A DNA stretch of 64,000 bases from a virus, in IMG/VR virus record IMGVR_UViG_3300005826_000037, positions 49,645-113,644 of that record; one strand, 5' to 3'. Position 1 is the first letter of the stretch. Every line of letters starts with the position of its first letter. Positions 1 through 54,193 of this stretch are shown here, in pieces. A model generated the notes under the pieces. It was not told the DNA's origin and ran no database searches. It saw only the letters and a list, made by a program, of their open reading frames with translations. The position numbers and the translations under genes are program-made.

Positions 1-840
1 CTTATTTATAAGAGACTGGAAACTATCGAATAATACAGGATCATTTAAGTTAGTAGTTGGAATATATGAAGCAGTCAATGTATCATTAGATACAAGAACA
101 CCACTATCAACTATGATTGTAAAACCATCACCCTCTCTAAATGGAGTTACTGACGAACCGCCGCTCTTTGTTTCATAAATTGCAAAACTCAATACACCAT
201 TAGAAACTGCAGTTCCATTTGCGGTCCAAATTATTGGATTTCCATTTGAATCAACCTTTGCCCCAGAAATCGATCCAAAAGCGATGAATTTTGCAGTATT
301 TTCTATTGGCAATCCTAACGCACTCCTCTGAACAGAAACACATCTAATTGTCCATGTTTCTGGAGGAGCATTAGTATCAACAAGGGATAAAGAAGCTAAA
401 TAACCATCACCAACATTTGTAGAAACTGGAGTATAATAAGCGCCACCTTGATCTCTCAAATGACCCCTTTGCAACTCTATTCTACCAGTAGTAATATCAA
501 CTCTGTAATCATATCTACTACTGAATGCGTTGCTATCTATGGTTGCTTCCAATCCTGTAAGCAAAACTCCATTTTTATACAATGAGGTTCTAGCAGAAAC
601 AACTGGATATGAGGACAATTGGAAATGTCTTCCATCTGCCCCTGTAGTTGAAGTGTATGCAGAGTTAAATCCATCAACCCCTCCTCCAACTGCTTGGGCA
701 ACAATGGTTTCGTCTGCCGAACCCTCACCCATAATTGCTGCTATACGAGTACCACCAGGAATTGATACTCCCCTGGATTGTGTTACTATATCTGTAAAAA
801 CTCCTGGTAGGACATTTGTTGCGCCTGGGATGTTTGCCAT
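1..840 (-). CDS. Tail sheath-like protein, N-terminal part (gene runs off the left edge; missing from the ORF track)
   Basis: ATG at 840 with upstream AAGGA; frame open to base 1: MANIPGATNVLPGVFTDIVTQSRGVSIPGGTRIAAIMGEG... The PGV...AAIxG start is typical of contractile sheath proteins, and it follows a tail-terminator-like gene. Confidence 0.75.
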   Translation of the reverse strand, partial: MANIPGATNVLPGVFTDIVTQSRGVSIPGGTRIAAIMGEGSADETIVAQAVGGGVDGFNSAYTSTTGADGRHFQLSSYPVVSARTSLYKNGVLLTGLEATIDSNAFSSRYDYRVDITTGRIELQRGHLRDQGGAYYTPVSTNVGDGYLASLSLVDTNAPPETWTIRCVSVQRSALGLPIENTAKFIAFGSISGAKVDSNGNPIIWTANGTAVSNGVLSFAIYETKSGGSSVTPFREGDGFTIIVDSGVLVSNDTLTASYIPTTNLNDPVLFDSFQSLINK

Positions 841-8134: not shown

Positions 8135-9577
8135 TTAAGCTACTTTAACTAAATCCATTTTAACATGAATGTTCCAGTATGAGGTAATACCACCAGTGGT
8201 ATTATATGAGGTCCTAATAACAATATCATTACCTGTAAGATTATATATAGGAGCGGCACTCCAAGTACCACCAGTAGATGAATGAACTGTAGTTATACCA
8301 GTTTGAGTTACAGAGCCTGTTATCCTATTTGTAGCAAGAATTTGTTTTTTCTGATAACAATTTCCATTACTACCAACACCAACTGCAGTAATTTCAATCA
8401 ATGCAGCAGAATATTGAGGCATTGTTATTGTCAAAACATCTACCGTCGCCGTAGTTGCTGTAGCATTTACCTGATATCCATCTCCAGGATTATCAAGATT
8501 GTCTCCTACTTTATAAGAATCGGCAAGTGCCTCTGATACTCCTAATGAATAATCATTATTATCAGTTTGTACTACACGAAGTTTTCCAGCAGTTGAATAT
8601 AATATAGAACCTGTATAATTTGGACCCCTTGTAGGTGTTGGTGATGAATTGCCAATATAAATAATTTTACTACCAGTATTTTCAGGTAATCTACTAGTAA
8701 GTGTCGTTGTGTCTGAACAAAATGCAACTACTTTTCTACTACCAATTTCTCCAATTGACTGAATTTCTTCTACAAATAATAAAATATCACTACTATTATT
8801 TGCCTGTGTACCAATCCAAACTCCTCCATGCAATTCAGAAGAAGAATACCCTCCTCCCAAATATAACCTTCCTCCTTTATCAACCGTAGAACCTTGAGCC
8901 CTAAGTTTTAAACCATTTCCAACTCCTGTTGTTCTAGAACTATAAAATCCAATATTATAACTATCTAAAATACTACCTTCAAATAATATATTTGAACAAT
9001 TTACAGTCAACACTGAATCTCCATCACCAGTTACACTGACAATTTCTATATTATTTGATGTTCCGCTTACATCTCCACCAACTACTAAATTTCCAGGAAC
9101 CCATTGACTTCCACTCCAATATAAAACATTATTTGTCGATGGAGAAGAACTACTAATAGCATTTCCTCTAAGTTTAATTACAGATACAGAATTATAAGAT
9201 CCACTAATATCACCCCCCAAAGAAACAGGTCCCCAACCAGAACCGTTATATCCTAATATCTGACCAGATGTAGGAGATGAAGATAATACCGGTGTTGCCT
9301 GTAATCTTGAGACTAATGGAGAAGAATAAGTTCCTCCCAAATCTCCTGTCAATTTTATTCCACCAGTTACTGATGCTGTTGCATTAGGGAATACTCCAGG
9401 AATATAACCAGAAATAGCTGTAAGTGCCGATTGTATATCTGTATATGGAGTTCCATCAATTGTTACAGAACAAGCAATTGCTCCGCCCAAATGTTGATAT
9501 GCGTATCCATCAACATGATTTTGAAAATCATATCGACTAGTTGCTAATTGCCCAATTCCCGGTCTATAATTTCCCAT
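8135..9577 (-). CDS. Tail fibre / whisker-like protein with GD(L/I/V)xG..W.P repeats
   Basis: Repeats GDLGGT..GQILGYNGSGWGP, GGDISGS..NNVLYWSGSQWVP, GGDVSGT; 2 DGY. Confidence 0.6.
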   Translation of the reverse strand: MGNYRPGIGQLATSRYDFQNHVDGYAYQHLGGAIACSVTIDGTPYTDIQSALTAISGYIPGVFPNATASVTGGIKLTGDLGGTYSSPLVSRLQATPVLSSSPTSGQILGYNGSGWGPVSLGGDISGSYNSVSVIKLRGNAISSSSPSTNNVLYWSGSQWVPGNLVVGGDVSGTSNNIEIVSVTGDGDSVLTVNCSNILFEGSILDSYNIGFYSSRTTGVGNGLKLRAQGSTVDKGGRLYLGGGYSSSELHGGVWIGTQANNSSDILLFVEEIQSIGEIGSRKVVAFCSDTTTLTSRLPENTGSKIIYIGNSSPTPTRGPNYTGSILYSTAGKLRVVQTDNNDYSLGVSEALADSYKVGDNLDNPGDGYQVNATATTATVDVLTITMPQYSAALIEITAVGVGSNGNCYQKKQILATNRITGSVTQTGITTVHSSTGGTWSAAPIYNLTGNDIVIRTSYNTTGGITSYWNIHVKMDLVKVA

Positions 9578-9588
9578 TATTTTATTCC

Positions 9589-11598
9589 TTAAGGTAACAC
9601 AATAGTGTGCGTATGACCCAATACAATCGATACAACACCTGCAATAATTTGATGATTATGTCCTTGTGAAACATTTGTAGTTTGATTTATTTGAGAAATT
9701 GATGTAATACCTTCGTTTACAACAATCTCATGAGTATGTGGCAGGATATTTGAAGCAACACCAATACTTGTATTCAACTTTGAAGGAAACATACTAGTAT
9801 CGCTAAATATTCTTATTTGATAAGCTGGATCAAACTTTCTAATTCTTTGCGCCCTAAATTTTTGACCGCCTTGCTGCCCAATCATAGTATTATTTCTAGT
9901 TACAGATAATACTTCATACCTATACTCTTCATTTCCATTAAGGTCATATAATACTATAATATCCCTATCTTTTATAGTAGGAACTGTAAGTGTCCAAAAT
10001 TCTGTCTGAAACTCAGACTCCAAACCAGCTTCTGTCATTTTTACATCTTCTTCGGTTGGTCCAGGTCTTACCAAAATTCTACCATCAGATCTTCTTGGAT
10101 TAAAATATTGTTCATATCCAATGACAAATTTAGTACCATGACATAATGGGCATCTATCATCTGGATACTCACTAGACTCAAGATAACAAGAGCAAGTTAT
10201 TCCTGTTCTAGTTCTCTTAATAAGAACTGCTTGTTTACCAGTATTATCTAAAAGAACCTCTTGACGTTGATTATTATGATCTTGAACAGAGAATCCTCTA
10301 AGTACATTATAATTTCCATACTTATCAATACATCCCATTTCTCCACCAATATAACTTCCAACACATGTTCCATTTAATAATTGAACTGGATCTGTTCTAT
10401 GATATCCGGCATAATCATACCTTGGAAAATCTATATTTTCTTCATCACTCACACTTAAATCAGATGTTAATAAATCTTTTGTTACTTGATGATATCCGTC
10501 CGTCGCTGTGTATGGATAATTGGGATATTCAAATCTTGACTCACACAAAAATATATTGTCATATTTTGTATCCTCTCCCGATACAAAATAAATAACAGCA
10601 GGATTCCAATATAAATCACCATCATAGCCATCTGTATTATGTAATGTAGCAGTAGTTCCGCTATACCCTCTACCTCCAGCAATTGTTTCAGATCCATCAA
10701 CACCAATGATAAATGAATCCCCTTCAACAAATGGATATCCATCATATTCAACTATTGAAAAACTAAATATTCCATTGGATATGTTATAACCATCAGCTGT
10801 CCAAATATATGGGTCTGAATATCCATCCCTTACAGCGCCAACATAAGGGTTTGTATAACCATCTTTAACATATCCATCAGTAGGATAAACAACTCCAGAA
10901 TATGACCCAACAGATATAAACTTTGCAGTTGATTCTATTGGATTTCCATATCCATCTTTTTGAACAGAAATACATTGTATTTTCCATGTTTCTGTTATTG
11001 CGCTAAGATCTTCCAGAGTTAAATTAGCTAGATATCCATCACCAACATTTCCATATGAAGGAAGATAATTAGATCCTCCTTGATCTATAAAATGAGCGCT
11101 GATAAACGTATCACCAGGAACACCTAATGTATTAGCTATAGAATTTGTAGTTGTATAATGAATTAATTCTGCACCAATTCTTACAACTCCTTCATCAGGA
11201 AAATCAGTAACATCCATTAGTGGGATTATTAAATCAGTACTTGTTATATTGTTCGCTAATAAACTACTAGGAACAATTCTTAAATTATCGTAAGCAACCA
11301 ATAAATTTGTTAAATCGGTCACTGACTCATCATATTCCACAGCTCTAACGGAAAAGAAATACAATTGTCCTGGAGTTAAATCAATGATGTTTGCTTCTGT
11401 AGCACCATCAATAGATACATACTTAACACCCTCAGAAAATACATCTTCCTTAATTGTAGAATAATAAATATAATAGGCGATACTATTTGTAGATATTGTT
11501 GGGTACGCTTGGTGCCACTTCAAATTAATGGTATAGCCATCGCCCAAGCTGGTTAAAGCATCTAAACCGCCAATTATAGGTGATGGATAAAAAACCAT
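9589..11598 (-). CDS. Multidomain neck / head-closure-like protein (FN3-like + sheath-paralogous domain + Zn finger + His-rich tail)
   Basis: N-terminal LKWxxA..YYIYY..LTPGQLYFFSVRA (FN3-like); CSC..CPLC; C-terminal HTH/HNH/HTH tripeptides; 10 DGY. Confidence 0.55.
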   Translation of the reverse strand: MVFYPSPIIGGLDALTSLGDGYTINLKWHQAYPTISTNSIAYYIYYSTIKEDVFSEGVKYVSIDGATEANIIDLTPGQLYFFSVRAVEYDESVTDLTNLLVAYDNLRIVPSSLLANNITSTDLIIPLMDVTDFPDEGVVRIGAELIHYTTTNSIANTLGVPGDTFISAHFIDQGGSNYLPSYGNVGDGYLANLTLEDLSAITETWKIQCISVQKDGYGNPIESTAKFISVGSYSGVVYPTDGYVKDGYTNPYVGAVRDGYSDPYIWTADGYNISNGIFSFSIVEYDGYPFVEGDSFIIGVDGSETIAGGRGYSGTTATLHNTDGYDGDLYWNPAVIYFVSGEDTKYDNIFLCESRFEYPNYPYTATDGYHQVTKDLLTSDLSVSDEENIDFPRYDYAGYHRTDPVQLLNGTCVGSYIGGEMGCIDKYGNYNVLRGFSVQDHNNQRQEVLLDNTGKQAVLIKRTRTGITCSCYLESSEYPDDRCPLCHGTKFVIGYEQYFNPRRSDGRILVRPGPTEEDVKMTEAGLESEFQTEFWTLTVPTIKDRDIIVLYDLNGNEEYRYEVLSVTRNNTMIGQQGGQKFRAQRIRKFDPAYQIRIFSDTSMFPSKLNTSIGVASNILPHTHEIVVNEGITSISQINQTTNVSQGHNHQIIAGVVSIVLGHTHTIVLP

Positions 11599-14611: not shown

Positions 14612-15442
14612 ATGAAAAACAGACTTGAAACAAAACTAACTAAAACAATACTAGAATATGAATATAATAGATTAGGAAGTATGCAGAAGGTTGCTGACTA
14701 TCTTCAAGTATCAATAGACAGTATTTATAAATATATGAAATTATATGAAATACCATATAATAAACATTACCAAGGAATATATGTTTGTAATGAAAATTAT
14801 TTTAAAAATGATACTGAGGGATCTTTTTATTGGGCTGGATTTATAGCTGCAGATGGTTCGGTACAAAAAAGAAAATACTCTAAAATATTAAAAATAGCGT
14901 TATCACAAAATGACCATCAACACATTGAATTGTTTAAAAAATCAATCGAAAGTACACATCCTATAAAAACACATGAAGTAAAACCAAGTAAATTAGTAAA
15001 AACAAAAAACATGTGTTCTGAAATACAAATTGCAAATAATAATATCTATAATGATCTAAATCGATTTAATATAATTCCTAATAAGACAAAAGTATATACA
15101 TTTCCAGAATGGTTAATAGATCATGAATTAGTAAATCATTTTATGAGAGGATATTTTGATGGTGATGGTACTATAACTAACTGCGGTTTAGGAAAAAATA
15201 GATCTGTTATACAAAAATCATTTTCAATATTAGGGACAAAACAATTTATAGAGCAGTATATGAATACACTTATTTCCAAAACATTACTAAATGAAGTAAA
15301 AATATCACCACATTATTCTGTATTTAAATTATCTTATTCTGGAAATAACAACATCAAAACTATATATAATTTTTTATATAAAAACGCAACAATATATTTA
15401 TATAGGAAACATAATAAATTTCAAGATGATATTACTGAGTAA
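14612..15442 (+). mobile_element. Free-standing LAGLIDADG homing endonuclease
   Basis: YWAGFIAADG and FMRGYFDGDG; paralog of 12170-13009. Confidence 0.9.
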
Positions 15443-15783
15443 ATACCATATGGTGCAGTTACTTGTAATATCACCGATTCTATTTTAAGCCTTCCAAAAT
15501 CGTCTCTATATCGAATATCAACATAATAAGATCCAACAGCAGACGCTCCAGTAGGAATACTTACATCTCCATAGAATATTCCAAGATCAAATTTTGTCAT
15601 TGGAGATGGATAACCATCCATCAATGTAAGATTTGGCTTAATCACTCTATGAATAACCGGGACAGAATACCCGTCTATAGGATATCCATCATAATAACCA
15701 TCAGTATAATATCCATCCGTATCTAACACAGAAAGATAGATAGTTGCGACTTGACCTGGAGAATATGTTAGAAGCTGTGACAT
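15421..15783 (-). CDS. Small Ig-like virion protein with a tandem DGY array
   Basis: Likely start MSQLL at 15783; DTDGYYTDGYYDGYPIDGYS plus MDGYP; resembles the Ig-like N-terminus of 13672-14571. Confidence 0.6.
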   Translation of the reverse strand: MSQLLTYSPGQVATIYLSVLDTDGYYTDGYYDGYPIDGYSVPVIHRVIKPNLTLMDGYPSPMTKFDLGIFYGDVSIPTGASAVGSYYVDIRYRDDFGRLKIESVILQVTAPYGIYSVISS

Positions 15784-15848
15784 TGCAAAAAATATATCAT
15801 TATATGCATTCATACTAAATATGAAACATGATAAATAGGGAGAGTAAT

Positions 15849-16268
15849 ATGAAACCTTGCAGAGAAAAACCAAAAGAGCCAGAATTTTGGATAACTAATA
15901 TATCCACTAACAATATCAGTCTTTCAGATTTAAACATTACACTTAATTCTTATACATCAGTTAATTTGTTGGATAAACGGCATCAATATCTAACAATCGA
16001 AGAGATAAGAAATTCTCTTAATCGTGGAGCTTTATCAAAATACATAAAGATGAGAAAGATTGTAATAAGACACAATGCCCCAGTTATCTTTAAAAACGAG
16101 ATAAAGGTAGATAAAAATGCAATAATTCCTAATCGCCATACTTCAATATTTGAAATCGAGTATAGGAATTATGAAGAGTTAGATATAACTGACGAGGAAT
16201 TTGCTGCAGAAAATGCAGAAACGGCTGAGATAGATACTCTGCCATTGTTTAAGAAGGAAGAAGACTAA
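15849..16268 (+). CDS. Hypothetical protein, related to the N-terminal domain of 27953-28576
   Basis: GGGAG RBS; FWITNI..EEIRNSLNRGAL versus FIVRNI..QDIRASLLKGEL. Confidence 0.55.
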   Translation: MKPCREKPKEPEFWITNISTNNISLSDLNITLNSYTSVNLLDKRHQYLTIEEIRNSLNRGALSKYIKMRKIVIRHNAPVIFKNEIKVDKNAIIPNRHTSIFEIEYRNYEELDITDEEFAAENAETAEIDTLPLFKKEED

Positions 16269-31288: not shown

Positions 31289-32299
31289 TTATTCGACAAC
31301 TACGCTTTTACGCCCGGCTGCGACGCCTCTTGGGTTTACAATGGCGAGACCAATAATCTCACTTACGACCCAACCCAGCTTAAGTTGCTTTGGTTCATCT
31401 GCTGGAAGTACTTCAATATCCTGACGAATTGGCATGACTCCAACGAATTCGGGGTCTGCCGCACCGTAGATCGTTCCGGGAGGGACAATCTTGCTCACCA
31501 TAATGTCTGAGCCCCAAATGTGAGCATAAAGACCAGTTTGAAGAACTTCACGCATGGTGACAGGATCGAAATCGCCGCCAGATACGCCTTGTCCACCACC
31601 AGATCCCCACTTAAGGATATCGGTGAACTCATTGATGTTCATGAAATACTTGGTTGTGACAAGGTCCCAGCGATCGATCTGTTGTTTAATTTCAACTAGG
31701 TCTCTCTTAAGCAATCCAGCATCAGCGATATCGGTAAGGGTGTTTTCAACGGAAGCAGCTGCATCCAATGCTGCGAAGACGTTTGCATCTTCTTGTGCCA
31801 TCATTTCTTGACGTGCCTTTTGGACAGCTCTGTCGATGACGTTGAATCTACGCCTTTTGACTTCTGCAATACGTACAGTTGGATTTGCGTAAAGTTCGAA
31901 CTCAGGAACTACAACACGGTCACCAAAAACTCTGGACTCTGGTCCAGTACCGTTGCTAGAAATAACAACAGCTGCAACATCGATGTCACGGTCATAAGTT
32001 GGCATTGCACCTTGTGGAAGAGGATCAACAACCAATGCTCTACGAGCAATTCCATGGTAGTCAAGGTTTCTACGGATTGGGTTTGCCATTGCTTGTGCAA
32101 GAGCAATCTTTCCATCTTGAGTCATGATAGCACGGGAGATAAGCTCATCACGCTTCTCATCGCTCAATTGTGGTTGTCCAGCGAGACCCATATTGGAAGG
32201 TTGGTTCTCTTCGAGAATTGCGGCATACTTTACAAGAGTTTGTAAAGCATCCTTTAAAGATCCGGCGTTCATTTCGCCATGGTTATTAAACATATTCAT
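31289..32299 (-). CDS. Major capsid protein (HK97-like fold)
   Basis: 336 aa; LAQAMANPIRRNLDY..ARRALVVDPL..PEFELYANP..QEDANVF; higher GC than neighbours, AGGAG RBS, terminator immediately after. Confidence 0.85.
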   Translation of the reverse strand: MNMFNNHGEMNAGSLKDALQTLVKYAAILEENQPSNMGLAGQPQLSDEKRDELISRAIMTQDGKIALAQAMANPIRRNLDYHGIARRALVVDPLPQGAMPTYDRDIDVAAVVISSNGTGPESRVFGDRVVVPEFELYANPTVRIAEVKRRRFNVIDRAVQKARQEMMAQEDANVFAALDAAASVENTLTDIADAGLLKRDLVEIKQQIDRWDLVTTKYFMNINEFTDILKWGSGGGQGVSGGDFDPVTMREVLQTGLYAHIWGSDIMVSKIVPPGTIYGAADPEFVGVMPIRQDIEVLPADEPKQLKLGWVVSEIIGLAIVNPRGVAAGRKSVVVE

Positions 32300-52300: not shown

Positions 52301-54193
52301 TTATGCTGGAGGCGCTGCTGGAGGAGCTGGAGCTTCTGGTGGCGCACCACCACCTTCTCCACCTGGTGCTGGCATGCCTCCTAATTCACCACCTCCTCCG
52401 CCTGGCATTGGAGGTAATCCACCACCTAATCCGCCACCTAAACCACCCATATCACCCATTGGTGCTTCTCCTGGGAGTGGAGGTGCTCCACCTGGACCAC
52501 CTGCGCCACCGGCAACTTCTGATGGCTCTGGGATTTCGTCATCATCATCAAGTGCTCTAAGTTCATTAAGACTCATTGTTGCAAGAGATGCTGCCTCTTG
52601 TTTTGCAATAGCATCATTAATTGCTTCGACTCTCATCATTCTGGTTTCTTCCTCATACTCTAATCCCATTGAGCGATATAATGTGTGCAATGATGCTCTC
52701 TTCTGTTCTGGTCCACCACCTGTCAAAGTAATCAAATTCTGAATATAATCGCCAGCATCAAAAATTGACATATGGTTCCAATCAATTTCAGGAACAATAA
52801 GTTTCTTTTCTCCACCATCATAATCATAAAATCCTTGGATCTTTGAAATAGGAGCAAAAATTTTTCTCTTTAACCATGCAGATAACATATTACGGAATTG
52901 CATATAGCGCTGTCTCAGAACATCAAGAGCCACACCACCATTTGCATACGTAGTATCAGCACCACCATCCATCAATACAGATGGTACCTGTAGACCAACA
53001 TAGATTTCTTTCATTAACTGAGTGATATCACCAGAGATATCATAAATCCCCTGACCATAACCAATTCTCTCAATTGCTACACCCTCATGTGTAAAAATCT
53101 TAAAATCTTTATCATATTGAGCTTCTTCAAAAACATTTCTCCAAGCTTCAATATCAGCAAATGTTGGTTTGTATTGTTCAGATCCAATCTTAACTAATGT
53201 TAATGGATTAATCATATTATCTGCTTGGGCGTATTTTGACTCACGAAGTTTGTCAAAAAGCATAAGCTGTCTAAAAATACAAACAGGAAGACCAGTTCCC
53301 CTAATTTCGTAAGGGCTTATTCTTCTAGCCAAATGAGATACATTAAAATTATCAAGTGGAATATTCTCCCCACGTTTAACAGAATCGATAATCAATTGAT
53401 TTAATTGTTTTCTTTGTTCAATATCAGTAGGTCTATTAGAGAAGATAATCTTTTTTAGATTTTCATCGGGAATAAGCATGATAAGAGGCTCATCTGCAAC
53501 AACAGTTCTCTTAACAACCATATAATCAGGATTTTGGATAAGCAACCTACTCCATTTACCACTGCTCTCATCCAATTCTGCATATACAAAAGACTCGCCC
53601 AAAAGCCAATATTCTTGAGCTATTTGAACGCAGATATTCATAAGATCTGTTTCTTCAATCATATCATTAAAGAAGCGTTCAATTTCTTTATTCTTGCACT
53701 TGATATTTAATTTACTTATTGGATAAGTACTATGCAAATTGATTGCATTATGAACAAATGGATTTAATGCATAAAAACTGCGGCACCAAGCATTAATCGT
53801 AGCCCTATCACGTGGCAAATTAAGATTACTATTAAGCCATAATGGAGAATATACTTCAGGAGTTTGTTTTACAACATCTCCCTCTCCACCACGATGCCCC
53901 CAATTAGATGTTACAACCTGAGCAAATTTATTTACACCTACAGAACAACTAACAATAGAATTTGTTGTTTGTCTATTCTCATTATAAGTTGGTCCAGATC
54001 CATCTTTAAATAGACCTTGCGCAACTTCTTGTGTTAACGTATCTCTTCTTTGTTCTGAGACGCTTTTTGCCATTAATGCGCTGACTTGCGGAACACCCTG
54101 GGCTTTTTGATAACTATTTCTTGAGATCCCGTTTGCAACTATAGAGCTTGCAATTTCAGGAATACCACCATTTAATTTTCTAAATCCGGACAT
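52301..54193 (-). CDS. Portal protein
   Basis: Directly downstream of the terminase; AQEYWLLGESFVY, HLARRISPYEIRG, Gly/Pro-rich C-terminal tail. Confidence 0.8.
   Translation of the reverse strand: MSGFRKLNGGIPEIASSIVANGISRNSYQKAQGVPQVSALMAKSVSEQRRDTLTQEVAQGLFKDGSGPTYNENRQTTNSIVSCSVGVNKFAQVVTSNWGHRGGEGDVVKQTPEVYSPLWLNSNLNLPRDRATINAWCRSFYALNPFVHNAINLHSTYPISKLNIKCKNKEIERFFNDMIEETDLMNICVQIAQEYWLLGESFVYAELDESSGKWSRLLIQNPDYMVVKRTVVADEPLIMLIPDENLKKIIFSNRPTDIEQRKQLNQLIIDSVKRGENIPLDNFNVSHLARRISPYEIRGTGLPVCIFRQLMLFDKLRESKYAQADNMINPLTLVKIGSEQYKPTFADIEAWRNVFEEAQYDKDFKIFTHEGVAIERIGYGQGIYDISGDITQLMKEIYVGLQVPSVLMDGGADTTYANGGVALDVLRQRYMQFRNMLSAWLKRKIFAPISKIQGFYDYDGGEKKLIVPEIDWNHMSIFDAGDYIQNLITLTGGGPEQKRASLHTLYRSMGLEYEEETRMMRVEAINDAIAKQEAASLATMSLNELRALDDDDEIPEPSEVAGGAGGPGGAPPLPGEAPMGDMGGLGGGLGGGLPPMPGGGGGELGGMPAPGGEGGGAPPEAPAPPAAPPA

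What the first reader, a model, noticed from the sequence alone, without database searches (positions are those of the whole stretch)
10693..11094. A domain duplicated between the tail sheath and the neck protein shows DGY gained at loop positions
Sheath (100-462): HLRDQGGAYYTPVSTNVGDGYLASLSLVDTNAPPETWTIRCVSVQRSALGLPIENTAKFIAFGSISG..IIWTANGTAVSNGVLSFAIYE..PFREGDGFTIIVD. The 669-aa protein: HFIDQGGSNYLPSYGNVGDGYLANLTLEDLSAITETWKIQCISVQKDGYGNPIESTAKFISVGSYSG..YIWTADGYNISNGIFSFSIVEYDGYPFVEGDSFIIGVD. They are clearly paralogous. One DGY is shared and six more appear only in the neck copy, by substitution (RSAL to KDGY, ANGT to ADGY) and by insertion (PTDGYVKDGYTNPYVGAVRDGYSD). This acts as an internal control: the fold does not need DGY, so the motif was probably selected for a separate function. 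A sheath outer domain reused in a head-closure-like protein is also unusual in itself.
Basis: seen in the sequence. Interest (0 to 1): 0.8.

Follow-up and report, generated by a model that had tools for sequence, protein, structure and literature searches.

The report
Sheath domain copied into neck protein
An uncultured giant phage has copied a domain of its tail sheath into the neck protein that closes the head, and this optional, fast-evolving copy has filled its loops with the clade's unexplained Asp-Gly-Tyr surface motif, which shows that the motif is not needed for folding.

Summary
Residues 167-303 of the 669-aa protein (window 10690-11100, minus strand) are paralogous to residues 125-247 of the 923-aa tail sheath (46% identity, E 2e-29). 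The neck copy has 7 DGY and the sheath copy has 1.

The 669-aa protein is a head-closure ("stopper") protein. Residues 437-598 have the stopper fold (Z about 10) and carry a tetra-cysteine zinc loop like that of phage 812 gp97. The N-terminus holds an FN3 domain.

All neck copies separate from all sheath copies on one branch, which indicates a single old duplication. The sheath copy is present wherever it could be checked. The neck copy is an optional cassette, with at least 7 gain or loss events among relatives, and it evolves faster (48% versus 71% mean identity).

46 of 111 neck copies and 41 of 119 sheath copies have no DGY, so the fold does not need the motif. DGY was gained and lost repeatedly at loops. 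It is exact (DGF and NGY are not enriched), limited to outer virion proteins (72 observed versus 5.2 expected) and found across the clade (median 13-fold in 80 loci).

The function of DGY is unproven. A tag that is read or modified is the most likely reading. This scan already noted the DGY tag in at least 30 other genomes, but noted the domain pair only in this genome.

The parts
9589..11598 (-). Gene for the 669-aa stopper (head-closure) neck protein, P0001
   Evidence: ORF. AlphaFold2 model with mean pLDDT 85.8. Stopper fold and FN3 matches. It lies between the major capsid gene (window 31289-32299) and the sheath gene.
11299..11598 (-). N-terminal FN3 domain (about residues 1-100), containing DGY20 (present in 80% of orthologs)
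   Evidence: Pfam fn3 E 1.7e-4, 22.1 bits, below the cutoff of 25. VIA-align Z 10.7 to FN3 domains, rmsd 2.2 over 96 residues. DGY occupancy.
10690..11100 (-). Sheath-derived beta domain (residues 167-303) inserted in the stopper's N-terminal arm; 7 DGY
   Evidence: BLASTP E 2e-29 to the sheath. HMM E 1e-45. Domain model pLDDT 85.2. Absent from many homologs, which join the conserved ...N-x-L motif directly to G-R-G-Y.
10828..10890 (-). Lineage-specific loop insertion with two extra DGY (about residues 237-257), predicted disordered
   Evidence: pLDDT below 50 at residues 237-254 and at domain residues 77-94. Present in only 4 of 111 orthologs, with one change on the tree.
9805..10290 (-). Stopper / head-closure beta-barrel core (residues 437-598)
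   Evidence: 8q01_S (phage 812 neck) Z 10.5, rmsd 3.1, 140 aligned. 9l0e_A (T1 stopper) Z 10.3, 120 of 123. 9jlf_C Z 10.2. 8hdr_A (Pam3 neck) Z 9.5, 109 of 110. Foldseek probability 1.00.
10141..10194 (-). Tetra-cysteine loop C469-S-C471-(X)11-C483-P-L-C486
   Evidence: Read directly from the sequence. C469, C483 and C486 are at least 90% conserved. The pattern matches the zinc-binding loop of phage 812 stopper gp97 (PMC12886913). In orthologs, inteins sit immediately before C486.
9592..9804 (-). C-terminal tail with three H-x-H motifs (residues 599-669)
   Evidence: Sequence. H621, H623, H647 and H649 are invariant and H662, H664 are at least 90% conserved in A3. Absent from the more distant homologs.
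1..840 (-). N-terminal 280 residues of the 923-aa tail sheath gene (it continues to genome position 47713, outside the window)
   Evidence: PHROG tail sheath E 1.6e-10. Pfam Phage_sheath_1 and Phage_sheath_1C hits below cutoff. tblastn to phage G 'tail sheath' gp178.
100..468 (-). Sheath copy of the shared domain (residues 125-247), 1 DGY
   Evidence: Found at residues about 129-250 of the sheath in every related locus where the sheath N-terminus was within reach.

Best explanation
Shown. The contig is a 113.6-kb piece of an uncultured huge phage distantly related to Bacillus phage G. The 669-aa gene encodes the stopper (head-closure) protein of the neck. It has a beta-barrel core with a tetra-cysteine zinc loop, preceded by a 436-residue arm: FN3, a small beta domain, the sheath-derived domain, and a linker.

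The sheath-derived domain is a roughly 120-residue beta domain. It sits after about the first 125 residues of the sheath in this whole clade, and its fold is also detectable in the phage G sheath. It was copied once into the stopper gene, between the conserved N-x-L and G-R-G-Y motifs. Since then it has behaved as an optional cassette that is present or absent among close relatives. It evolves much faster than both the sheath copy and the rest of the stopper.

In this phage and its nearest relatives, the loops of the neck copy acquired DGY by single substitutions at pre-existing D/N-G turns and by a disordered loop insertion.

Inferred. Six copies of the arm form an outward-facing collar around the neck. 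The clade-wide, exact, position-fluid DGY tripeptide on outer virion proteins is a short tag that a partner reads. The most likely partner is an enzyme that modifies Tyr, and the phage's own glycosyltransferases encoded beside the baseplate genes are the candidates. Docking of a ligand or decoration protein is the next most likely reading. On this view the unconstrained, exposed neck copy has become a dense display platform for the tag, while in the sheath copy, present in hundreds of copies and packed in a lattice, the other loops of the domain rarely hold DGY (at most 3% of orthologs).

My odds: architecture and evolutionary history 0.9; DGY is a tag that something reads rather than a folding element 0.6; specifically Tyr glycosylation 0.3.
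For: Paralogy: (E 2e-29).

Stopper identity: Z 9.5-10.5 covering whole stopper chains; tetra-cysteine loop described for 812 gp97; gene order portal, capsid..., this gene, fibres, sheath.

Single duplication: in the domain tree of 230 copies, neck and sheath copies are split by one branch with support 99.

Direction sheath to neck: the sheath copy is present in all 33 related loci where the sheath N-terminus could be seen, including genomes whose stopper lacks the domain. The fold matches the phage G gp178 sheath and the Ma-LMM01 sheath in BFVD. Stopper homologs at 26-48% identity lack the domain.

Optional cassette: on the tree of the stopper core, presence needs 10 changes, at least 7 of them forced by well-supported branches. 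P0001 groups (98) with the domain-less L004 and L024. Junctions are clean.

Rates: mean identity is 48% among neck copies, 71% among sheath copies and 65% for the whole stopper.

DGY not needed for the fold: 46/111 neck copies and 41/119 sheath copies have none.

Recurrent gain and loss: 12-20 changes per site.

Loop location: in the DSSP of both models, six of the seven domain motifs lie wholly outside strands and the seventh lies at a loop-strand junction.

Exactness and restriction: DGY 72 versus 5.2 expected in the virion module; DGF, NGY and EGY not enriched; non-virion genes 2 versus 2.2; 38% of all DG dipeptides are followed by Y, versus 3% elsewhere.

Protein level, not DNA level: codon use follows general usage, and 74 of the 76 minus-strand matches to the DNA pattern are in the DGY frame.

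Clade-wide: median 12.9-fold in 80 loci with GC 27-47%.

Glycosyltransferases: GT4, two GT2 and a sugar dehydratase lie next to the baseplate genes, and the GT4 is conserved at 67-73% identity in two relatives.
Against: No modification has been observed, and no enzyme has been linked to DGY. I know of no Tyr-directed sequon of this form, and two literature searches found none.

Phage glycosyltransferases often act on DNA or host envelope polymers rather than on virion proteins.

Most sites that gain DGY already had a D/N-G turn or an aromatic residue (DGS, NGP, SGF, DQY). A structural preference, amplified by the relaxed constraint on the neck copy, therefore explains part of the pattern.

Two DGY sites are nearly invariant (neck 367, sheath 417; 99%), which looks structural.

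DGY counts inside and outside the domain do not correlate among orthologs (rho 0.03).

The outward orientation of the domain in the sheath and in the neck is inferred, not modelled. No sheath model was made, and matches to solved sheaths are weak (Z 2.3-3.4).

The patchy presence of the cassette could reflect recombination rather than loss.
Confidence: 0.6

Rival explanations
1. DGY is only a favoured structural element: a D-G turn followed by a Tyr that starts a strand or packs on the surface. On this view the excess in the neck copy simply reflects its faster, less constrained evolution, and nothing reads the motif.
For: The gaining sites are pre-existing turns (DGS, DGT, NGP, SGF, DQY). The Y of three of the protein's ten motifs (189, 325, 369) is in a strand or beta-bridge. 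The neck copy evolves faster (48% versus 71%). Two sites are 99% conserved.
Against: The near-equivalents DGF (5/4.5), NGY (9/5.5) and EGY (1/4.1) are not enriched, whereas DGY is 72/5.2. Beta-rich non-virion and inner virion proteins (capsid, portal, tape measure) have none. Phage G tail proteins show no excess (3/2.0). Tandem DGY occurs in loops predicted to be disordered. 46/111 neck copies fold-align with no DGY.
Confidence: 0.15
2. DGY is a non-covalent contact motif. Tyr/Asp/Gly loops would act like antibody-paratope residues that stick to host surface glycans, or would dock a decoration protein. The neck cassette would then be an adhesion collar rather than a modification target.
For: The motif lies on fibres, baseplate, sheath and neck, in exposed and disordered loops and in tandem arrays. 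Its number and position are fluid. Y, G and D dominate antibody binding loops, and the only literature hits for DGY are antibody CDRs.
Against: Generic stickiness would not require one exact order: YGD 3/5.2 and GDY 3/5.2 are not enriched (GYD 8/5.2). A conserved glycosyltransferase cluster sits beside the virion genes.
Confidence: 0.25
3. The patchy distribution of the neck copy is due to lateral exchange of the cassette by homologous recombination between co-infecting relatives, not to repeated deletion.
For: Presence is scattered over the stopper-core tree (at least 7 events). The flanks are conserved enough for recombination. Core and domain identities correlate only moderately (rho 0.57).
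Against: No domain-bearing pair shows a domain much more similar than its core. For example, the L009 core is 85% identical to domain-less relatives while its domain is at most 57% identical to any sampled neck copy. Clean in-frame deletions between two conserved motifs are simple events.
Confidence: 0.3
4. The DGY excess is a by-product of a DNA-level signal (GAYGGNTAY), or the similarity of the two domains is due to recent gene conversion or low-complexity composition.
For: 76 matches to the DNA pattern lie on the coding strand versus 1 on the other strand.
Against: 74 of the 76 are in the DGY reading frame. Codon choice follows general usage (GGA 41, GGT 25, GGC 5, GGG 3). Non-virion genes on the same strand show no excess. 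Neck and sheath copies are split by a single branch across more than 100 genomes, at 48% identity between the classes. BLASTP used composition-adjusted statistics.
Confidence: 0.01

Closest known systems
Stopper (head-closure) protein gp97 of Staphylococcus phage 812 (PDB 8Q01, 8QKH, 8QGR; PMC12886913)
   Same: Both have a beta-barrel core (Z 10.5, 140 residues aligned), a C-x-C-(X)n-C-x-x-C loop, which binds zinc in gp97, and an extra external domain on the stopper.
   Different: Here the external part is a 436-residue N-terminal arm containing FN3 and a domain copied from the phage's own sheath, and there is a C-terminal triple H-x-H tail. The loop has Ser where gp97 has Pro. The 812 paper states that the loop is restricted to Herelleviridae. 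There is no detectable sequence similarity.
Small stopper / head-closure proteins of T1 (9L0E), FCWL1 (9JLF), cyanophage Pam3 (8HDR), SaPI1 and Douge connectors
   Same: The whole 110-123-residue chain superposes on residues 437-590 (Z 9.5-10.3).
   Different: Those proteins consist of the core alone. This one is about six times larger.
[quoted passage not shown]
   Same: The shared domain occupies the same topological slot, an insertion after about the first 100-125 residues. Its fold matches the phage G gp178 model (Foldseek probability 0.99, TMq 0.46) and an uncultured-phage sheath (E 1.9e-14, 40% identity).
   Different: Matches to solved sheath structures are weak (Z 2.3-3.4). I know of no sheath domain reported inside a neck protein; this rests on my own knowledge and the papers listed, of which only the phage 812 paper was read.
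D2-type beta domains of flagellar hook-junction proteins FlgL and FlgK (5ZIZ, 7C7Z, 4UT1)
   Same: These are the best matches among solved folds for the isolated domain: Z 8.4, 8.2 and 8.0, rmsd 2.5-3.1 over 84-93 residues, standing above the next matches, Z 6.8 (another hook-junction complex) and Z 6.7. Both are outer insertion domains of subunits of helical tubes.
   Different: Z about 8 is at the level the tool warns may reflect only a common arrangement. Foldseek E is only 1.7e-3. No sequence relation was found. I do not claim homology.
Virion glycosylation by phage-encoded glycosyltransferases in mycobacteriophages (Freeman et al. 2023, cited from memory and from scan notes), and the gain and loss of glycan sequons on viral surface proteins
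   Same: Glycosyltransferase genes lie next to structural genes. A short motif on exposed virion proteins keeps its number while its positions change.
   Different: No glycan has been shown here. The motif centres on Tyr, not on the Ser/Thr-rich C-termini of those phages. No DGY sequon has been described.

Membership tests
Phage stopper / head-closure protein | Beta-barrel core fold of the stopper | tested here: met
   Residues 437-598 match 8q01_S (Z 10.5, 140 aligned), 9l0e_A (Z 10.3, 120 of 123) and 8hdr_A (Z 9.5, 109 of 110). Foldseek probability 1.00.
Phage stopper / head-closure protein | Gene placed between head genes and tail genes | tested here: met
   Portal at window 52301-54193 and capsid at 31289-32299 lie upstream; fibres and sheath lie downstream on the same strand.
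Phage stopper / head-closure protein | Forms a hexameric ring between adaptor and tail terminator in the virion | not testable with these tools
   This needs a multimer model or cryo-EM. No multimer prediction tool was available.
812-type (Herelleviridae-like) stopper subgroup | Tetra-cysteine zinc loop C-P-C-(X)n-C-X-X-C | tested here: met
   C469-S-C471-(X)11-C483-P-L-C486 lies inside the stopper region. C469, C483 and C486 are at least 90% conserved. The pattern is described in PMC12886913. Ser replaces Pro, and zinc binding itself was not tested.
Contractile tail sheath (the 923-aa partner protein) | Conserved C-terminal sheath core (Pfam Phage_sheath_1 and Phage_sheath_1C) | tested here: met
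   The Pfam hits are below the curated cutoffs (28.0 versus 31.4 bits; 20.1 versus 26.9 bits). Support comes from PHROG tail sheath E 1.6e-10, from orthologs that carry PF04984 and PF17482, and from tblastn to annotated sheaths of phage G and others.
Sheath outer (protruding) domain | Located on the outer face of the assembled sheath | tested here: inconclusive
   The topological position and the BFVD match to the phage G sheath support it. Solved sheaths align at chain residues about 90-240 but only with Z 2.3-3.4.
Fibronectin type III domain (N-terminus) | FN3 beta-sandwich | tested here: met
   VIA-align Z 10.7, rmsd 2.2, 96 aligned. Pfam fn3 scores 22.1 bits, just under the cutoff of 25. 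One ortholog carries PF00041.
Protein glycosylation sequon (DGY as acceptor) | Motif on exposed loops of proteins accessible to the transferase | tested here: met
   In the DSSP of two models, the motifs of the shared domain lie in loops or at strand starts, two of them in a loop with pLDDT below 50.
Protein glycosylation sequon (DGY as acceptor) | Cognate glycosyltransferase encoded and conserved with the motif | tested here: inconclusive
   GT4, two GT2 and a dehydratase lie beside the baseplate genes. The GT4 is conserved in two DGY-rich relatives. The phage G tail module has no DGY excess. This is too few genomes, and no link from enzyme to motif was established.
Protein glycosylation sequon (DGY as acceptor) | Covalent sugar on the motif residue | not testable with these tools
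   This requires mass spectrometry of virions or a co-expression assay.

The most novel reading that the evidence does not exclude
DGY is the acceptor signal of an undescribed virion-surface modification, such as O-glycosylation of tyrosine by the phage's own GT4/GT2 enzymes, used by a large clade of huge phages. The sheath-derived cassette in the stopper would then be an optional, rapidly evolving collar whose main role is to display many copies of this tag at the head-tail junction.
Probability: 0.3. Interest if true: 0.85.

Novelty: new variant of a known kind. Interest (0 to 1): 0.6.

Why it matters
Shuffling of decoration domains among virion proteins is known. A domain of the contractile sheath re-used inside the head-closure protein, and kept as a present-or-absent cassette across a large uncultured clade of huge phages, has not been described as far as I could find.

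Its larger value is as a natural experiment on the DGY motif. The same fold exists in two copies per genome and in hundreds of genomes, with anywhere from 0 to 7 DGY. This separates the motif from folding requirements. It also identifies a small, well-predicted domain of about 140 residues that could be expressed with and without the phage glycosyltransferases to test directly whether DGY is modified.

The work also extends the tetra-cysteine stopper loop beyond Herelleviridae.

Tried and rejected
1. tblastn of P0001 against 50,697 phage records found no match. The genome-contig scan found no relative. The clade therefore has no cultured or annotated member in these sets.
3. The listing of cluster members gave no names.
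4. Pfam and PHROGs give nothing for the shared domain. A sequence search of the PDB with the sheath found nothing, and a search with the stopper profile found only FN3.
5. Foldseek against the PDB with the isolated domain gave no hit at E below 1e-3.
6. Alignment A1 was too diverse for the search for related loci, so it was replaced by A3.
7. A DNA-level origin of DGY was rejected.
8. Gene conversion or a recent duplication was rejected.
9. A third copy of the domain in the contig was not found; the marginal hits at E 0.1-0.2 in the two genes just upstream of the sheath are not significant.
10. DGY enrichment in phage G was not found.
11. Literature searches for a DGY motif or a phage sequon found nothing relevant.
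12. The correlation of DGY counts inside versus outside the domain was null.
Full report
**What is there.** The window is the right-hand 64 kb of a single 113,644-bp virus contig. Nearly all genes are on the minus strand. The ORF at 9589-11598 encodes a 669-aa protein (P0001). The ORF that begins at window 840 runs off the window. Recovered from the genome, it is a 923-aa protein (P0003) with weak Pfam hits and clear PHROG hits to tail sheath, and a tblastn match to the annotated sheath of Bacillus phage G. The major capsid protein is 53% identical to that of phage G. Orthologs of both proteins lie on metagenomic contigs of up to about 500 kb. The contig is therefore a fragment of an uncultured huge phage distantly related to phage G.

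**The observation.** BLASTP aligns P0001 residues 169-301 with sheath residues 127-245 at 46% identity, E 2e-29. A profile of the domain finds only these two proteins in the contig. The neck copy carries seven DGY and the sheath copy carries one, at the aligned position. The only correction is that DGY258 is a substitution in a conserved loop. Only about 19 residues (238-256), which carry two DGY, are an insertion, and it is shared by just four close orthologs.

**What the 669-aa protein is.**
- An AlphaFold2 model built on 83 homologs has mean pLDDT 85.8.
- Residues 437-598 superpose on phage stopper (head-closure) proteins: phage 812 neck chain 8q01_S (Z 10.5, 140 residues), T1 stopper (Z 10.3, 120 of 123), FCWL1 (Z 10.2) and cyanophage Pam3 (Z 9.5, 109 of 110).
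- Inside this region lies C469-S-C471-(X)11-C483-P-L-C486. This matches the tetra-cysteine zinc loop described for the 812 stopper gp97, which that paper reports only in Herelleviridae (PMC12886913).
- The N-terminus is an FN3 domain (Z 10.7).
- The gene lies between the capsid gene and the fibre and sheath genes.

The architecture is: FN3 (1-100), a small beta domain (101-166), the sheath-derived domain (167-303), a linker with an invariant DGY367 (304-436), the stopper core (437-598), and a C-terminal tail with three H-x-H motifs (599-669).

**What the shared domain is.** Modelled alone with both kinds of homologs, it has pLDDT 85.2, with a disordered loop at the insertion. It is an all-beta domain. 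Among solved structures it is closest to the D2-type domains of the flagellar junction proteins FlgL and FlgK (Z 8.0-8.4 over 84-93 residues). That is a borderline level, and I treat it as fold resemblance only. Among predicted viral structures it matches an uncultured-phage sheath (E 1.9e-14), and more weakly the sheaths of phage G (probability 0.99) and Ma-LMM01. Five solved sheaths appear among the 46 chains with Z of at least 2, all aligned at chain residues about 90-240 (one alignment, to phiKZ gp29, extends to 381), but with Z of only 2.3-3.4. That the domain faces outward in the sheath is thus an inference from topology. It was not shown.

**History of the duplication.**
- A tree of 111 neck copies and 119 sheath copies separates the two classes by a single branch with support 99. 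This means one old duplication, with no gene conversion since.
- The sheath copy is the resident one. In all 33 related IMG/VR loci where the sheath N-terminus fell within the flank, it has the domain at residues about 129-250, including genomes whose stopper lacks the domain.
- More distant stopper homologs (26-48% identity) align over residues 1-165, 305-430 and 437-598 but have nothing at 170-300.
- Unexpectedly, the neck copy is optional even among close relatives. On a tree of the stopper core with the domain columns removed, presence or absence needs 10 changes, at least 7 of them forced by well-supported branches.
- The window's protein groups (support 98) with two domain-less proteins that are 71% identical to it in the core. 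L009 keeps the domain although its core is 85% identical to domain-less relatives, and its domain is at most 57% identical to any other neck copy.
- The domain-less forms join the conserved N-x-L motif directly to G-R-G-Y.
- Together with the single origin, this points to repeated clean loss. Cassette exchange by recombination is not excluded.
- The neck copy is the fastest-evolving part of the stopper: mean pairwise identity is 48%, against 65% for the whole protein and 71% for the sheath copy.

**DGY in the two copies.**
- Among orthologs, the neck copy carries 0 to 7 DGY (46 of 111 have none; the window's phage is the maximum). The sheath copy carries 0 to 2 (41 of 119 have none).
- Occupancy per site is low and variable: 187 23%, 215 19%, 258 50%, 269 14%. 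The sites change state many times on the ortholog tree (215: 15 changes; 269: 12; 258: 12; outside the domain, 323: 17 and 326: 20).
- Alternatives at the same columns are DGS, DGT, NGP, SGF and DQY. The motif therefore arises by one or two substitutions at pre-existing turns.
- In the DSSP of both models, six of the seven domain motifs lie wholly in loops, two of them in the loop with pLDDT below 50. The shared motif sits at a loop-strand junction.
- Whether the one shared DGY is ancestral or convergent cannot be decided (65% of sheath copies, 23% of neck copies).

**Is DGY more than a turn preference?**
- Genome-wide it is by far the most over-represented tripeptide (74 versus 7.3 expected, z = 24.6).
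- In the virion module it is 72 versus 5.2, while DGF (5/4.5), NGY (9/5.5), EGY (1/4.1), YGD and GDY are at or below expectation and GYD (8/5.2) only slightly above it. Non-virion genes show 2 versus 2.2.
- 38% of all DG dipeptides in the virion module are followed by Y, against 3% elsewhere.
- Capsid, portal, tape measure and other inner proteins have none.
- Codons follow general usage, and the DNA pattern is almost only in the DGY frame, so the signal is at the protein level.
- The excess is clade-wide: median 12.9-fold in 80 loci with GC 27-47%. It is absent from the phage G tail module.
- A GT4, two GT2 and a sugar dehydratase lie directly beside the baseplate genes, and the GT4 is conserved in two relatives.

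These facts favour a short tag read by a partner, either a modifying enzyme or a binding protein or ligand, over a purely structural element. No modification has been shown, and no published DGY motif was found. Notes from this scan report the same tag in at least 30 other genomes. They are unchecked leads, not evidence. The sheath/neck domain pair has been noted only in this genome.

**Verdict.** The neck assignment is right. The "internal control" logic is sound and is now backed by hundreds of orthologs. Three new points emerged: the carrier is a stopper with an 812-type tetra-cysteine loop; the sheath is the donor; and the neck copy is an optional, fast-evolving cassette. The function of DGY remains open. 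I put 0.6 on a tag that is read and 0.3 on Tyr glycosylation specifically.

**Limits.** No sheath or multimer model could be made.

Noticed in passing
window 10141-10194 (-); orthologs P0007, P0008, P0013 and others: About 1,060-aa orthologs of the stopper carry an intein (Hint and LAGLIDADG Pfam domains). It is inserted exactly before C486, the last cysteine of the tetra-cysteine loop (CPL | C-H-G). An intein in a head-closure protein is unusual, and it marks this loop as a highly conserved site.
   Followed up: partly
window 10141-10194 (-): The C-x-C-(X)n-C-x-x-C stopper loop, which PMC12886913 reports as conserved only in Herelleviridae, is present and conserved in this clade of phage-G-like huge phages.
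   Followed up: partly
window 9592-9804 (-): The C-terminal 70 residues of the stopper hold three H-x-H motifs (H-T-H, H-N-H, H-T-H), whose histidines are invariant or at least 90% conserved among close homologs. They resemble the metal-binding H-x-H repeats of phage fibre tips (from memory). More distant stopper homologs lack this tail.
   Followed up: no
window 15421-15873 (-): A 150-aa protein has five DGY, four of them within about 17 residues (a tandem array with irregular spacers). This is the densest DGY stretch in the contig and a second simple test substrate.
   Followed up: no
window 10495-10497 region (P0001 DGY367) and sheath residue 417 (outside the window, L001): Unlike the other sites, two DGY sites are almost invariant: neck 367 (110 of 111 orthologs) and sheath 417 (118 of 119). 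Either these are structural, or they are the original functional sites of the tag.
   Followed up: partly
L005:6280-8265 (-), genome 6277-8265, outside the window: The NAD-dependent sugar dehydratase next to the glycosyltransferases is 662 aa. It has a weak Intein_splicing hit across residues 123-427, so it seems to be split by an intein.
   Followed up: no
L005:4845-6218 (-), outside the window: A TubZ/PhuZ-like tubulin (Pfam Tubulin and TubZ-like_C) is encoded just past the glycosyltransferase cluster, with a GH25 lysozyme and a UvsW-like helicase nearby.
   Followed up: no
window 8135-9577 (-): The gene just downstream of the stopper encodes a 480-aa fibre-like protein (DUF5907 repeat, PHROG minor tail protein) with two DGY. 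It may be a neck fibre attached to the stopper collar.
   Followed up: no
whole virion module (genome 13688-82737): Thr is over-represented just before DGY (19 versus 5.6 expected), which hints at a longer T-D-G-Y context.
   Followed up: partly
L006 (Bacillus phage G, NC_023719.1 85001-135000): The nearest cultured relative by capsid (53% identity) shows no DGY excess in its tail module (3 versus 2.0). tblastn with P0001 found no match in any phage record, phage G included, so the tag and this stopper form are traits of the uncultured clade.
   Followed up: partly
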